Below are positions 6,001-18,000 of a DNA stretch of 30,000 nucleotides, one piece after another. The position numbers were made by a program. The stretch spans positions 1 to 30,000 of the forward strand of contig CAWVXU010000025.1 of NCBI GenBank assembly GCA_963934255.1, written 5' to 3'. How positions within the stretch are numbered: position 1 is the first letter of the stretch; each line of letters starts with the position of its first letter. Source of the DNA: an uncultured Fibrobacterales bacterium. GTDB lineage: Bacteria; Fibrobacterota; Fibrobacteria; Fibrobacterales; CAWVXU01.

Positions 6001-9000
6001 TCGGCAAACTGCGGCTTCCACAGCAAATCTTTTAAAGCAAGTTGACTATCACCCACGAGCATATCGGGATCTCCGGCTCGCCGTTCTTCCATCCGGACAG
6101 GGATAGGATGTCCGGTAACTTTTCTTGCGATTTCAACAACCTCTAGAACGGAAAAACCGGTACCATTACCTAAGTTATAATTTTTTGAAGTGCCACTTTC
6201 CAAAAGACTTTTTAAAGCCAATTCATGTGCTTGAGCGAGATCTAAGATATGAATGTAATCTCTAATGCAGGTGCCATCAGGAGTTTTATAATCCGACCCA
6301 AATATGGAAATAAATTCTCTTTTACCTAAGGCAACTTGCAGTATCAGTGGTATCAGGTGAGTTTCTGGATTATGATCTTCACCAATTCGACATTGTGGAT
6401 CAGCACCGGCCGCGTTGAAATACCTTAAATTGATAAATTTCATCCCATAGGCATTTTCATAATCCCCTTGTAGCATTTCTAGCAGAAGCTTTGTACGCCC
6501 ATAGGGGTTTATTGGTTTTTGACGATGATCTTCTGAGACTTTATCCGTGATTGGCTTGCCAAATGTGGCACAAGTCGATGAGAAAATAAAGTTTTTCACC
6601 TTATATTCAGCCATTTTATTGAGTAATGTGATAGATTTTGAAAGATTATTGTGGTAGTATTTAGCGGGGTCAGTGACTGATTCTCCAACATAAGCATAGG
6701 CACTAAAATGCATCACAGCTGTAAAGTCATTGTTTTGAAATAAATCATCCAAGACTTTAGGGTCACCCATATCGCCTTGAACAAAACGGCCAAAGAGAAC
6801 AAATTCCTGATGACCATAGACCAGGTTATCAAGGACCGTTGTTTGGTAACCAAGTTCATTTAAATACAAATTTGTGTGTGAGCCGATATACCCAGCGCCA
6901 CCAACAATCAAAATATGGGGTTTGTTTTGAGACATAATACACCTTTGTTTAATTGAAATTATACTTCTATTTCGGAGCGTTATGTGAGTTTTTAGCGAAA
7001 TTTTACTCATCAAAGTCACACTTGAGGTGAAACTTAAAGAAAAAAGTAAAAGAAAGCTTAAAGTTTTGCTCTAAGATGCCGATATACTTAATGCAGCTGC
7101 GGTGTTTTTGGGAAGAAACGCTCTGTGCAAATTAATCGGAGGAAAATATGGAAGTCTCAGGCAATAATCCTGTTGGATCATTAGATTCAATGAGAAATAA
7201 TGAAATTAAATCAATCTCGCGTGAAGTGGTTCAAAAGAAAACTGACGAAGAAGTTCAATTAAAACGTCAGACTGAAACGGACCGTGTAGAGATTGAAAAC
7301 AAAGATTTACGTGATAATCAACGAGAAGCTACTGATTCTGAGGCTGTTGAAAACACCAAAGCATTCAATGACGGATTACGGTCAGGTCAAAATATTGATT
7401 TCATTGCCTAATTAGTTAGTTAATAACGACTGACTTAAATTTTTGTATATTGACGGGCATGAGTGAAATACATAGTGCCCTTCTTTACTTTACATGCATA
7501 GTCATGTCCTTAGCGATCCATGAATTTGGACATGCGTGGGTGGCTTATCGTCTTGGTGATTCTACTGCTAGATCTTTAGGTCGAGTTACAATTAACCCCA
7601 TTAATCATTTAGACCCCATGGGAACTTTGATGTTGGCTATACTAGCCTTTAGTCAAATAGGTATAGGGTGGGCCAAGCCTGTCCCTGTTAATCCTATGAA
7701 CTTAAGTGACCCGCGTCGCGACCTTATGCTCATATCATTTGCTGGGCCTTTAATGAATCTTATTCAAGCTTTTGTGGTTTCAGGGGTTTTAGTTGCTTTG
7801 TTGAATTCTGGTGTATTGCACCCTCAAGCAAATCAAGGAGGCCTTGGGCTTCTCAAAGACGGCCTCTATATTTACATGGTGGTAAATATTGGTCTGTTTC
7901 TTTTCAATATGCTGCCAATTTATCCTTTAGACGGGTCCAAAATCATTTCATTTTTCATGCCAAGACCGATTGCTTTCAAATTTGAATCCAAAATGTTTGA
8001 ATGGGGTTCTAAGCCTTTTATTATTCTTTTTATTGCTCAAATGCTTTTAGGCCATAATGGTCCATTTTCATTGATATTAGGGCCAGCAGTTCAGTTTTTA
8101 TTTGGACTTTTATTAAGTTTTTGGAGTATCGTTTTAAGTATTTTTTAAAAGAAATCAAAACGCCTTGAATAATTTGGTAATTATTTGTAGTTTGGCTTCA
8201 AAATTGAAAATAAATTTAAATTATTTGGAGATTGCTTGTGCCTCAATCAAAGTCATGTAAAAAACGTCTAAAAATTACTGCGCGTCAAAACCGCACCAAC
8301 CGCTCAGTTCGTTCGGCGATTCGTACAAAAATTAAAACTATCCGCTCTGCTGAAGAAAAAGAAGTGATAGCTGCTGAAGTTCCTCTTCTTTTCTCTATGC
8401 TTGATAAAGCAGCACGTCGTCGCCAAGCTGGTTTCACTAAAAACCGAGCAGGTAACTACAAGAGTAAAATACAAAAGATATTAAACGCTAAATTAGCAGC
8501 TTAACATCTCCGATATATACTATACAATCTCTTGAGCCCTCATTATTTGAGGGTTTTTTTGTTTTATGCTTGATTCTGTGGACAAAAAATTATAATTAAA
8601 GTGTGAGGGATTTGAATTCTTTAAGGGTACGTGTTTAAGCCAAGAATTATTTTGGAGAATGGGTTAAATCAATGGCATCAATTAATTTTGCTACGCGTGA
8701 AATTAACTGTAAAATTGTCTACTATGGCCCAGGCCTTAGTGGTAAAACTACCAATCTCCAAGTCATTCACCAAAAGCTTCCTCAAGATAAGCGAAGTGAT
8801 ATGGTCTCCCTAGCTACAGAGCAAGATAGAACCTTGTTTTTTGATTTTTTACCCCTCGATTTAGGCTCTATTAAAGGCTTTAAGACAAAGTTCCAATTAT
8901 ATACTGTTCCTGGTCAGGTGTATTATAATTCAACTCGTAAGCTAGTGCTTCGTGGTGTTGATGGTGTTGTGTTTGTCGCTGACTCTCAAAAAAACAGAAT

Positions 9001-15000: not shown

Positions 15001-18000
15001 CAATTGAATATTGGTGGATCAACTCTAATGATCAAGGAATTGCAATAATTACAGAATTTGATGAATGGAGTCGTGCCCAATGGCAAAAAAAATGGGGATA
15101 TGGCCTAAGTTGGTCACTTTATCAAGGTAAAAGTTGGTATTTTTCTGGTTCTTGGGTTTTCGCTTGGCAGGAGTCCTTCGAAATTAGTAGGATTAAGGTC
15201 TCAGTAGTAAACAGTTTTTGAGGTAATCAATTTGAGCGAATTAAATCGCACCATTAATGAAACATTGAATTTTAAGGGTTTTACCAAATTTTTAACAGAC
15301 TCTAGAAGCTACCTCCCCTGGGGTAATTTCTTTTCTCTATTGGGTGGTTTCACGGGTTTGGGGCTAGCTTTTGTTTTATTGTTCATATATCAACTATTTC
15401 AAACCCCATTAGAGCGCGATATTGGCGTTTTCTCTTTAGCCCTGAGTCCGCTTTTCATTTTTATTACCGTTGTTCTCATTGTTGGTTTTATGGGTCTTTT
15501 GGGTTCTATCGCAGTCTTTCTTTCTGAAAGAGTCAATATGATTGAGAATCAACTACTTGATGTCAAAGACAAATCCGAGACCGACCCGCTTTCTGGTTTG
15601 TGTAATCGTCGTAGTTTTATGCGAATGATGGATACCGAGTTACATCGACAGTCCCGACTTAAGAATCAAGGCGAAATGGCTCTTATTTTCATTGATATTG
15701 ACCACTTCAAACTCGTGAATGATACACACGGGCATCATGCTGGTGATATTGTCATTCAATTGTTGTCCAAATTTCTAGAACAAGCGTGCAGACCATATGA
15801 TACTGTGGCTAGATGGGGTGGGGAAGAAATAGTCATTCTTACTCCTCAAACATCTGAAGATCAATCGGTGCGTTTTGCAGAGCGTATCCGCAGTGGTATT
15901 GAGGCTCTTGACATTGATGCTGAAGGTCAAACAATCCCTATTACCGTTAGTATTGGTGTAGCGTTATATTTATCAAATGGTGAAGAAATGAGTGAGTTTA
16001 TCGATCGAGCAGACTCTATGCTTTACAAAGCAAAAAATTGTGGTCGAAATCGAGTTGAAATTTCATTAAGTGATCAAGCAGTTAAGCAATAATAGCTAAA
16101 TTACCCTCTTTCTTTGACATCCCAAATAGAGGATTGTAGTTACATCAATAAACAAAGTCATATATTGATATTTATGCTGTCAAGTTCACTCAATAAGTGA
16201 TAGGATATGAAACTCGTATAACTCCTGTTAGAGAAGACTCATCAAAAAAATGTCGAGGAAATTCATTCAACTAGAGAAGTTGTTTCCTGAATACTTAAAC
16301 AACTAGAACGTCGAAAATTCATTCAATTAGGTCGTAATAAAATTGAACTATTGTGACAGAACAATGAGTGATGTTATAACTCATATAGATGGAAAAATTC
16401 AGGTTAATTGGTGCAATGATGACTGAAATTGAAGAAAAAGAGTTTTTTTTCAAATTCAAAAGGAATGATATATAAATTTAATACATGAAATGTTTATTAC
16501 TGATATTATTAGTCTCACAGATTTATTCAAAAGTATCTTTTGACCCTTCACAGATAGTTTCAAAAATTGACTTGAATCTCAAATTTACGGATTCAGAATC
16601 AAGGCCTCAATCACTCGGCGGCTACTTCAATGAAGCTCCTCAAGCGGTTCATCTGGTCCAATTCGTCTATTTTAACTGTGGGTCGATCTGTTCTCCGTTT
16701 ATAAATGAGACTATTTTTAGTTTAAGAGCGATTCAACCTGACCTTATCTTAGGGCGTGATTTTACACTAAATACAATATCAATAAACCCTACTGAGTCAA
16801 GTTCACTTGCTGCCGATAAAAAACAAAACTATTTAAAAGAATACCATAGTCAATTTGGTCAAAGCGCCAGCTCTGCCAGCCCTGCCAGCCCTGCCAATAG
16901 GACTAATTTATCACATCTCACCAGCGAGCAAATCAAAAGTTGGCGTTTCCTCGTAAGTGATAGCCTAACTGTATCAAGAATAACGAGTTCACTAGGTTTC
17001 TTTTTTGACCCTATTGGTGATAAAGATTATAATCACAAAGCGGTTATGTTCTTTGTCAATACACAAGGTGATTTAATTGATTTTATCAAAGGACCCATGT
17101 TGTATCCTTTAGAAGTCAAGATGAAGGTTTGGGGAATTCAAGGGGGTGTATCTTCAATTATCAAAATGAAATATTATAAATGGTTTTATACTAAAAATGA
17201 AACTGCAGGGAAATACGAACTAATTACGGTCAAGCTAGTTGTACTGTCTGGGATAACGTTCATTTTGTTCATTCTGTTTTTATTTAGAATGAAGCGCATA
17301 GTTACTTCTAAAAGGAACTGATTATGATTTTAGATCAATTTATTGGAGGCTTTTTTTTATTGATACTAATCAGCTCATATTTCTGGGCCATTAAGGTGAG
17401 TTGGTTGTGCTATCAAGCCAAGCGCAGTTTAACTGAGCTCTCTTGGATTTGGTTTAGTTTAATTCTTGTGACATTATTTTTAGGTTTCGGCTATTCTGTT
17501 AGATGGGGAAACTTTTGATTCTATTAAGCAGAATATCAGATGTTCTTATCAGAATTCTTTTAAAATTTAAAGCTTATTTTGATTTAACTAAAGCTCCTGC
17601 AATTGTATTAATTGTGCTTGTTACTTGGATGGGTGGGCTCCTATCTCAGCCCAAAAACTTAAGCGGTGATGTTGGACTCAAATTAGGTGTAGCCCTGATT
17701 TTCATTGCAATTTCTGCTGCAGGTTCACTAGCCCTTAATCAATGGATGGAGTGGCGTACCGATGCTCTTATGGAAAGAACCAAAGTCCGCCCAATTCCAT
17801 CAGGTAGGTTAAGTGCAAATGAAGCTTTGGTCTTTGGCCTGCTATTGTTTCTTATTCCATTACCTATTCTAACCTATTGGGCCTCTCTACAGGCTGCTTT
17901 AGCTACTTTCTTTTGTGGAGCAATCTATTTGCTTGGATATACAATCCTTAAGTCCAAGAGTTCTTGGAGCACATGGGTGGGGGCTATTCCTGGCGCATTA

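What a model noticed while it worked through the whole genome (the two positions that open the first line are those of the whole stretch)
8672..15221. MglA-MglB polarity switch wired to a phylum-conserved orphan outer-membrane module
Six genes with overlapping or abutting ends encode an MglA GTPase carrying a 134-aa Pro/Ser-rich tail, a Roadblock-like MglB candidate, two small membrane or secreted proteins, a 1035-aa all-beta envelope protein and a 421-aa beta-rich protein; the small protein g01111 and the 1035-aa protein are conserved in Fibrobacterota beside rpsT, but MglA/MglB are not found at those loci. I read it as a Ras-like polarity switch recruited in this motile lineage to steer a conserved, still nameless outer-membrane machine. 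If true it gives the first functional handle on a roughly 1000-aa orphan protein kept by most of the phylum.
Evidence so far: g01109 (C25:8672-9655) is 62% identical to Myxococcus xanthus MglA over residues 1-193 of 195 (Swiss-Prot table, E 1.7e-80, call 167) and continues for 134 residues rich in P, S, K. g01110 (139 aa) has only a weak Roadblock/LC7 hit (E 0.027, call 90). Successive genes start at 9652, 10068, 10517, 10849, 13956 where the previous ones end at 9655, 10071, 10520, 10849, 13956. g01113 (1035 aa) has matches at E<=1e-10 in 70 of 101 sampled phylum genomes, all 40 of the Fibrobacter family. In four relatives' loci tblastn finds g01113, and in G064 also rpsT and g01111 in the same order, but no MglA or MglB (E<=1e-4, call 93). 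Protein-atlas neighbours of g01113 are unnamed Fibrobacterota/Ignavibacter [...]
(Added by a program. Inside this text positions count along the whole contig: contig position 1 is position 1 of the stretch shown here. "Call 12" and the like, gene names such as g00115 and contig names such as C1 are that model's own, and its searches are not shown. The text may have been shortened before it was handed on; [...] marks where a part breaks off. The agent that wrote the report below was given it as the finding of a first reader that could run no searches.)

Follow-up and report, generated by a model that had tools for sequence, protein, structure and literature searches.

The report
Giant barrel operon hosting MglA-MglB switch
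A cell-polarity switch (MglA-MglB) sits in one operon with a very large, unnamed outer-membrane pore and its own assembly-type partner; the pore is widespread and of unknown function, but most bacteria that carry it lack the switch, so the switch probably does not run it.

Summary
(1) mglAB is at relatives' loci: within 2.3 kb of the big gene in 55 of 55 genomes of sister family f2, in 0 of 29 more distant ones. (2) The 421-aa protein is not an orphan but a short Omp85 (16 strands, one POTRA). (3) The 1035-aa protein is not phylum-specific: it belongs to a family of over 2,300 clusters, models (pLDDT 79) as a closed barrel of about 38 strands, SprA-like in layout, and occurs in 140 of 201 sampled Bacteroidota-phylum genomes, always with SprA and in 134 with the Omp85 partner. 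126 of those 140 have no MglA match. Best reading: an ancient barrel+Omp85 module into whose operon a group-1 MglA/MglB pair moved in one order; the switch probably still serves pilus polarity. Steering of the barrel by MglA remains possible (about 0.17) but has only gene order behind it. The scan noted the barrel+Omp85 module three times and the tailed MglA once on other DNA; Solan 2021 predicted 38/40-strand SprA-related barrels. The operon fusion is the new element.

The parts
8232..8504 (+). rpsT (S20), upstream neighbour, probably a separate transcription unit
   Evidence: Pfam/NCBIfam over cut-off; same position in 3 of 3 f2 loci read
8534..8556 (+). Terminator-like hairpin plus T run between rpsT and mglA
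   Evidence: Consensus scan only (11 sites found, 4.8 expected in shuffles)
8672..9655 (+). Group-1 MglA GTPase (residues 1-194) with a 134-aa low-complexity tail ending in a conserved IELRPYVPK motif
   Evidence: PDB MglA E 5e-77; G1-G5 motifs, G3 TVPGQ; same tail end in 29 of 29 f2 proteins read
9652..10071 (+). MglB (Roadblock/LC7, putative GAP)
   Evidence: 3 of 3 f2 orthologues pass the Robl_LC7 cut-off; 4-sequence profile hits M. xanthus MglB at E 5e-12; only Roadblock match in the genome
10068..10520 (+). Single N-terminal membrane anchor plus DUF2914-like small beta domain with two conserved cysteines; seen only in the window's order
   Evidence: Hydropathy; atlas structure neighbours DUF2914, TM 0.60-0.66; alignment; found in G130, not in 4 other genomes searched
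10517..10849 (+). 110-aa orphan with a hydrophobic N-terminus; absent from relatives' loci
   Evidence: No family; no tblastn hit under E 0.27 outside this genome in the loci fetched
10849..13956 (+). Giant single-chain outer-membrane beta-barrel, about 38 long strands, C-terminal Phe, member of an unnamed FCB-wide family with SprA-like layout
   Evidence: AF2 on 68 sequences, pLDDT 78.6, pTM 0.75; 38 long strands counted from DSSP; 707 residues aligned to SprA 6h3i; 2,356 clusters at E<=1e-30
13956..15221 (+). Short Omp85-family protein (one POTRA in the model + 16-strand barrel), conserved partner of the giant barrel; this copy lacks the usual L6 motif
   Evidence: 17 of 18 downstream ORFs scanned in relatives hit POTRA and/or Omp85; profile to BamA E 2e-38; AF2 pLDDT 79; Foldseek top hit TamA E 5e-13; L6 check
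15232..16092 (+). Membrane-bound GGDEF diguanylate cyclase 10 bp downstream; possible local operon member, not conserved
   Evidence: Pfam GGDEF E 2e-44; no match in 40 relatives' loci

Best explanation
A composite operon of two modules with separate histories. Module 1 (old, FCB-wide): a roughly 38-strand outer-membrane barrel and a dedicated short Omp85 protein, in many lineages with a beta-propeller gene in front. Shown: fold, family range, joint presence or absence. Inferred: the Omp85 is a private insertase or standing partner for the giant barrel, and the barrel is a gated conduit for large cargo working as a dispensable accessory of type IX secretion (this step about 0.4). Module 2: a group-1 MglA GTPase with its MglB GAP. 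In the ancestor of the window's order it left its older DUF4388/PATAN operon and landed between rpsT and the barrel genes, where a DUF2914-like gene now stands in place of the propeller gene. It is probably co-transcribed, but most likely still does what group-1 MglA does elsewhere: set the leading pole for type IV pili or other surface motility through the DUF4388 protein kept elsewhere in the genome. The tail is an FCB-wide feature, a flexible linker with a short terminal anchor motif, not an adaptation to this locus.
For: Barrel without an MglA match in 126 of 140 Bacteroidota-phylum genomes and in 20 of 20 listed MglA-negative genomes of the own phylum. Linkage 55 of 55 in f2 but 0 of 29 elsewhere. 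mglA sits behind a 710-aa gene and a DUF4388 gene in 17 of 20 non-f2 loci. DUF4388 is kept unlinked in 4 of 4 MglA-positive genomes searched and not found in MglA-negative G130. PATAN/DUF4388 domains bind the pilus motor, and MglA genes are often near PATAN genes (passages of 10.1101/2021.06.11.447907; PMC4316618). The genome has 7 PilB/PilT/GspE-family ATPase matches. Barrel and Omp85 partner: both 134, barrel only 6, partner only 0, neither 61 of 201. Barrel with SprA 140, without 0. Adjacent in 21 of 40 phylum loci and within about 6 kb in G159, G174, G179. Tails on 19 of 19 other phylum MglAs and 10 of 10 Bacteroidota-phylum MglAs read.
Against: Gene order with overlapping ends has been kept in two families (55 of 55 plus this genome), which selection on a shared function could explain. 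All 14 MglA-positive Bacteroidota-phylum genomes also carry the barrel, though 70% of the sample does. The order changed its MglA tail motif and gained g01111, a plausible inner-membrane bridge, at about the same node. The co-occurrence counts are not independent (kin share losses). The structural match to SprA (Z 14.8, rmsd 9.4) is tied with ordinary porins, and the shared sequence motif also occurs in what look like flagellar hook-associated proteins, so it is weak evidence of T9SS kinship. No experiment speaks to the barrel's cargo.
Confidence: 0.62

Rival explanations
1. One reading: in this order MglA/MglB was recruited to position or switch the barrel+Omp85 machine, with g01111 (short cytoplasmic basic end, one membrane helix, periplasmic DUF2914-like domain) as the bridge and the new IELRPY tail motif as the docking site.
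For: Linkage in 55 of 55 f2 genomes and in this genome; overlapping gene ends; g01111 seen only in this order; distinct tail motif in 29 of 29 f2 MglAs and here; the four MglAs of this order form one supported clade (95/87).
Against: G130 (same order) has g01111-barrel-Omp85 and no MglA match. The barrel works without MglA in most carriers. f1 and f2 are close kin, so the linkage is one event. The locus lies beside a ribosomal protein gene, where gene order is often stable. No paper found linking MglA to T9SS or Omp85 proteins.
Confidence: 0.17
2. Module 1 has nothing to do with type IX secretion: the giant barrel is an import or export pore for a polymer (or a structural envelope protein) that needs its own Omp85 because of its size, and its nesting within SprA-positive genomes only reflects shared loss in streamlined lineages.
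For: 22 SprA-positive genomes lack both genes. Barrel presence does not follow GldD (10 of 22 barrel-negative, 14 of 28 barrel-positive) or PorU (13 of 22 versus 28 of 28, four of these only weak paralogue hits). Neighbours in Bacteroidota-phylum loci are mostly housekeeping genes. Foldseek gives TM 0.2 to SprA, no better than to SlpA.
Against: No barrel without SprA in 140 cases. The alignment to SprA spans both chains end to end with 707 residues, far longer than any other match. sprA and the barrel gene are tandem neighbours in G337.
Confidence: 0.3
3. In this genome the module is decaying or repurposed: the Omp85 has lost its L6 motif and part of its N-terminal POTRA region, and the barrel lacks the N-terminal extension of other lineages.
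For: No GG..(L/V)RG(Y/F)-type motif in the window copy, against 25 of 28 other rows. 77 residues precede strand 1, against a median of 147 outside the order.
Against: Both frames are intact, end in Phe and fold confidently. The short barrel N-terminus is shared with the four f2/f3 proteins checked. Metatranscriptome contigs cover parts of both genes (DNA in the library not excluded).
Confidence: 0.1

Closest known systems
SprA/Sov, 36-strand T9SS translocon (PDB 6H3I, 8GL8; TIGR04189)
   Same: Single-chain giant barrel; 707 residues aligned end to end; a small inserted beta domain with weak similarity to SprA positions about 600-660; never found without SprA in the sample.
   Different: Less than half the length, without SprA's large extracellular cap; far below the family cut-off; the genome has its own 2,316-aa SprA; paired with an Omp85 gene.
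'Large single barrel' families of Solan et al. 2021 (PMC8346858; families 002 and 003, 40 and 38 predicted strands; matches to a 6H3I fragment and 6R2Q)
   Same: Same predicted size class and the same partial homology to SprA (supplement tables S1, S2).
   Different: The text I could read gives no sequences, taxa, partner or function for them, so I could not tell whether this family is one of them.
'BamA-like' Omp85 subfamily (Heinz and Lithgow 2014, PMC4104836) and TamA
   Same: 1-3 POTRA domains plus a 16-strand barrel, present in addition to a true BamA (929 aa on C3); top fold match TamA.
   Different: Kept or lost with one specific giant barrel; no TamB-like neighbour noticed; this copy lacks the L6 motif.
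Group-1 MglA/MglB of Myxococcus xanthus and Thermus thermophilus
   Same: G-domain E 5e-77, TVPGQ G3 and Arg next to the G2 threonine region, coupled Roadblock gene (PMC4316618 lists Fibrobacteres among group-1 carriers).
   Different: 134-aa disordered tail with a conserved end motif; gene order mglA then mglB (mglBA in Myxococcus is recalled, not checked); embedded in an outer-membrane operon.
MinD/MinD4-type membrane targeting sequence
   Same: Long linker ending in a short basic-aromatic motif (KKGFFxxLF-type in 17 of 19 other phylum MglAs), the layout described for Haloferax MinD4.
   Different: The window's order has an [14 protein letters not shown] end instead. The likeness to the MinD motif is recalled; a PDB profile search gave nothing under E 0.4.

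Membership tests
Group-1 MglA | Ras-like G domain with G1-G5, TVPGQ in G3 and intrinsic Arg near G2 | tested here: met
   definition from passages of PMC4316618
Group-1 MglA | Coupled to an MglB gene within four genes | tested here: met
   Overlapping downstream gene
Group-1 MglA | Small single-domain protein (<240 aa; holds for 449 of 488 MglA-clade sequences in PMC4316618) | tested here: not met
   327 aa with a 134-aa tail; a variant, the G domain itself is full length
Group-1 MglA | GTPase activity stimulated by MglB; polar localisation | not testable with these tools
   Needs biochemistry and microscopy
MglB (Roadblock/LC7 GAP) | Roadblock domain homologous to characterised MglB | tested here: met
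   Own score below cut-off (14.7 of 23 bits), but 3 of 3 orthologues pass and the family profile hits MglB at E 5e-12 over positions 3-108
Omp85 superfamily | 16-strand C-terminal barrel ending in an aromatic residue | tested here: met
   16 barrel strands in the AF2 model; terminal Phe; Foldseek TamA/BamA
Omp85 superfamily | N-terminal POTRA domain(s) | tested here: met
   One POTRA-like unit in the model; POTRA hits in 16 of 18 downstream ORFs scanned
Omp85 superfamily | Conserved L6 loop motif (VRGF/Y type; its importance is recalled) | tested here: not met
   Absent in the window copy by pattern search; present in 25 of 28 other rows, one of the three misses being a wrong ORF
BamA proper | Five POTRA domains, about 800 aa, TIGR03303 cut-off | tested here: not met
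   421 aa; no hit for the window copy, orthologues 53-135 bits against 297; separate 929-aa BamA-size gene on C3
SprA/Sov | TIGR04189 score over 200 bits and length about 2,300 aa | tested here: not met
   No hit for the window protein; homologues at most 30 bits; 1,035 aa
SprA/Sov | Giant single-chain barrel of 36 strands | tested here: inconclusive
   Closed giant barrel supported; 38 long strands counted from DSSP only, without coordinates; Z 14.8 at rmsd 9.4 is tied with porins
SprA/Sov | Lateral gate with PorV/Plug; translocates CTD cargo | not testable with these tools
   Needs structure and genetics
Solan 2021 large single barrel families 002/003/009/014 | Sequence membership | not testable with these tools
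   Member lists are on an external site; the supplement text read holds none
DUF2914 | Pfam PF11141 match or same fold | tested here: inconclusive
   No Pfam hit; predicted-structure neighbours TM 0.60-0.66, one row meeting the naming bar

The most novel reading that the evidence does not exclude
The giant barrel and its private Omp85 are a second, undescribed large-cargo translocon of FCB bacteria tied to type IX secretion, and in this order a tailed Ras-like MglA/MglB switch, acting through the membrane-anchored DUF2914-like protein, places it at one cell pole. That would be polarised secretion under small-GTPase control in cellulose-degrading bacteria.
Probability: 0.12. Interest if true: 0.88.

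Novelty: new variant of a known kind. Interest (0 to 1): 0.52.

Why it matters
A barrel predicted to be as large as or larger than SprA, the largest solved single-chain barrel, is present in about 70% of sampled Bacteroidota-phylum genomes and 96% of the window's phylum, has no Pfam or NCBIfam model, and comes with its own Omp85. That gives a two-gene knockout target in genetically tractable Bacteroidota and bears on how very large barrels are folded and whether T9SS has a second pore. The MglA link is a smaller, lineage-specific lead, and the FCB-wide tailed MglA offers a bacterial parallel to the membrane-anchoring tail of Ras.

Tried and rejected
Pfam and NCBIfam name neither the window's barrel nor 34 (Pfam) and 10 (NCBIfam) homologues above cut-off; a PDB sequence-profile search gave nothing under E 0.05. 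The short 'VWLDG..DYEIDY' domain shared with SprA was first taken as evidence of kinship, then down-weighted because the profile also hits two C48 proteins that read as flagellar hook-associated proteins and phage-tail models. Gliding (GldD) and PorU do not track the barrel. GltG-like matches in the genome are partial and far below cut-off. The hydrophobic-moment scan of MglA tails did not single out the terminal motif, and a PDB profile search of the tails was empty. One metatranscriptome run gave 7 short contigs, none bridging a gene junction, so co-transcription is untested. No barrel-Omp85 complex prediction was obtained (no verdict), and no accession or name look-up for the Bacteroidota-phylum homologues, so I could not tie the family to locus tags or mutant data. 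Alignment errors: A3 held one wrong row (rebuilt as A4), A9 one (dropped), A10 one wrong ORF of 29 rows that stayed in the Omp85 model. Two SprA cross-hits (G326, G354) were dropped from the 142 barrel matches before counting. Literature searches found no description of the barrel+Omp85 pair or of tailed MglA in this phylum; subscription journals are mostly not covered and preprint supplements were not visible.

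
Full report
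Observation. The six ORFs exist at the stated coordinates on the + strand, joined by three ATGA overlaps and two one-base stop/start overlaps; a GGDEF gene starts 10 bp after the last. A terminator-like hairpin follows rpsT at 8534-8556 (consensus only). One metatranscriptome run gave seven short contigs on rpsT, mglA, the barrel, the Omp85 gene and upstream genes, none across a junction, so co-transcription rests on spacing alone.

MglA and MglB. Residues 1-194 match M. xanthus MglA at E 5e-77 with G1-G5 motifs and the group-1 TVPGQ (definition in passages of PMC4316618, which lists Fibrobacteres among group-1 carriers). g01110 is below the Roadblock cut-off, but 3 of 3 f2 orthologues pass it and their joint profile hits M. 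xanthus MglB at E 5e-12. MglA was found in 128 of 151 phylum genomes at E<=1e-20. The claim that mglAB is missing at relatives' loci is wrong: from the coordinates, mglA lies 1.9-2.25 kb before the barrel match on the same strand in 55 of 55 f2 genomes with both, and in 0 of 29 other genomes for which both places were listed (most of these are drafts, but two single-contig genomes put them more than 1 Mb apart). Three f2 loci read in full show rpsT-mglA-mglB-g01111-barrel-Omp85. In 17 of 20 mglA loci fetched from outside f2, mglA follows a 710-aa gene and a DUF4388 gene (profiles built from these loci), and 7 of 10 Bacteroidota-phylum mglA loci have a weak match to that DUF4388 profile. The older context is therefore the DUF4388 operon. 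A DUF4388 gene survives unlinked in this genome and in 3 of 3 f2 genomes searched, and was not found in G130, which also lacks an MglA match. DUF4388 equals PATAN, which binds the pilus motor in Synechocystis, and MglA/MglB genes are regularly near PATAN genes (passages of 10.1101/2021.06.11.447907). The genome has seven PilB/PilT/GspE-family matches, genes that read as flagellar (my reading of the sequences) and only partial GltG-like matches; Fibrobacter carries group-B agl/glt genes (passages of PMC3169522 and PMC3441718).

The tail. It is not special to this locus. All 19 other phylum MglAs parsed (of 20 loci) are 429-777 aa with low-complexity linkers, 17 ending in a KKGFFxxLF-type motif. 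All 10 Bacteroidota-phylum MglAs read end in an FFKNL-type motif after a shorter linker. In the window and in 29 of 29 f2 proteins the end is IELRPY(V/I)PK. The first two look like membrane-targeting helices of the MinD kind (recalled; layout as in passages on MinD4, 10.1101/2020.04.03.021790), but the moment scan and a PDB profile search did not confirm this. In a tree of 34 G domains the window groups with f2 (95/87).

The 421-aa protein. Of 18 downstream ORFs scanned in relatives, 17 hit POTRA and/or Omp85. Their profile matches BamA at E 2e-38. The AF2 model (29 rows, one of them a wrong ORF) has pLDDT 79, one POTRA-like unit and 16 strands, with TamA as top fold match. A separate 929-aa BamA-size gene is on C3. 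This fits the 'BamA-like' class with 1-3 POTRAs (passages of PMC4104836). The window copy lacks the L6 motif seen in 25 of 28 other rows.

The 1035-aa protein. It matches 145 of 151 phylum genomes. A 46-sequence profile finds 5,186 clusters at E<=1e-3 and 2,356 at E<=1e-30, with named members in Balneolaceae, Bacteroidia and Flavobacteriales. With 68 of the 149 aligned sequences, AF2 gives pLDDT 78.6 and pTM 0.75. I count 38 long strands from DSSP, without access to coordinates; only 16 show clear hydrophobic alternation by a crude test. Porins align to both its first and last strands, as expected for a closed barrel, and SprA aligns over 707 residues end to end (Z 14.8, rmsd 9.4, tied in Z with the porins); Foldseek TM to SprA is only 0.2. 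It is not SprA: homologues score at most 30 of 200 bits on TIGR04189 and the genome has its own SprA. Solan et al. 2021 (PMC8346858; passages, section 5 and supplement parts 4-5) predicted single barrels of 38 and 40 strands with SprA-fragment homology; I could not test whether this family is among them. Passages of two preprints name SprA as the largest solved barrel.

Co-occurrence. In 201 genomes of the phylum of G151 (a record titled Bacteroidota), 142 matched the barrel profile; two SprA cross-hits were dropped, leaving 140. The Omp85 partner matched at E<=1e-30 in 134, all barrel-positive; 61 had neither. All 140 have SprA; 22 SprA-positive genomes lack both genes; 39 lack all three. MglA matched in 14 of 201, all barrel-positive, so 126 of 140 carriers have none. 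In the own phylum the partner matched in 127 of 151 at E<=1e-35 (at least one false negative, G104, found locally) and lies in 21 of 40 barrel loci fetched; a propeller-type gene lies in 16 of 40 (most rows were used to build the profiles). GldD and PorU do not follow the barrel in 50 chosen genomes. These counts are not independent observations.

The small genes. g01111 has one membrane helix and a DUF2914-like domain and was found only in this order, including next to the barrel in MglA-negative G130. It stands where other lineages have the propeller gene. The 110-aa gene is an orphan.

Mechanism. Shown by computation: identities, folds, gene order, distribution. Inferred: the Omp85 folds or permanently partners the giant barrel; the barrel passes large cargo, most likely as an optional T9SS accessory (about 0.4, against 0.3 for an unrelated pore); mglAB moved into the operon once and most likely still controls pilus polarity through DUF4388. 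No complex prediction was obtained, so binding between barrel and Omp85 is open.

Novelty. The parts are variants of known kinds. Earlier notes of this scan, read after my reading was formed, describe the barrel+Omp85 module in three other genomes and a tailed MglA in one; they are not independent support. Eight literature searches and passages of PMC12611786, PMC6851124 and PMC10936215 showed no description of the pair or of this operon; most subscription papers and all preprint supplements were out of reach. New here are the order-wide fusion of mglAB with the module and the switch of tail motif. Interest 0.52: the barrel module is a good open target; the headline link is weak.

Noticed in passing
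L137-L156, L220-L229 (MglA genes of other FCB lineages): MglA carries a low-complexity linker of about 35-580 aa ending in a short basic-aromatic motif (KKGFFxxLF-type in 17 of 19, FFKNL-type in 10 of 10), suggesting a membrane-tethered Ras-like GTPase across FCB phyla.
   Followed up: partly
L137-L156, upstream of mglA: Conserved unit of a 710-aa membrane protein without Pfam match, a DUF4388/PATAN gene and, in 7 of 20 loci, a second 110-aa Roadblock gene; looks like the ancestral mglAB operon of the phylum.
   Followed up: partly
L230:3519-14867 (G337): sprA and the giant-barrel gene are tandem neighbours about 600 bp apart; seen once among the sampled genomes whose positions were listed.
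   Followed up: no
L139:9121-10542 (G104): The Omp85 partner lies 2 kb downstream of mglB (priA between) while the barrel gene is 1.25 Mb away; a second, possibly chance, contact between mglAB and the module.
   Followed up: no
G227:C4:301711-302253, G351:C23:61390-62130, G263:C1:2623679-2624227: Second, weaker matches to the barrel profile in open frames of 1,025-1,049 aa; possibly another family of large barrels.
   Followed up: no
window 13956-15221: This Omp85 copy has lost the L6 motif kept by nearly all orthologues, including the f2 ones.
   Followed up: partly
G000:C3:15233-21115: Two tandem PorU-like genes in this genome (three in G104, two strong ones in G016), where most Bacteroidota-phylum genomes searched showed one strong copy.
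   Followed up: no
window 21070-23657: PEGA-domain protein with a weak PorG hit (E 0.04) followed by two abutting 215-aa genes without family; possible envelope operon.
   Followed up: no
window 1387-5942: Two paralogous CDP-glycerol glycerophosphotransferase-like genes on the minus strand flank a 386-aa plus-strand gene without clear family.
   Followed up: no
window 26771-27088: Stand-alone 105-aa protein made only of the N- and C-terminal flagellar rod/hook signature segments.
   Followed up: no
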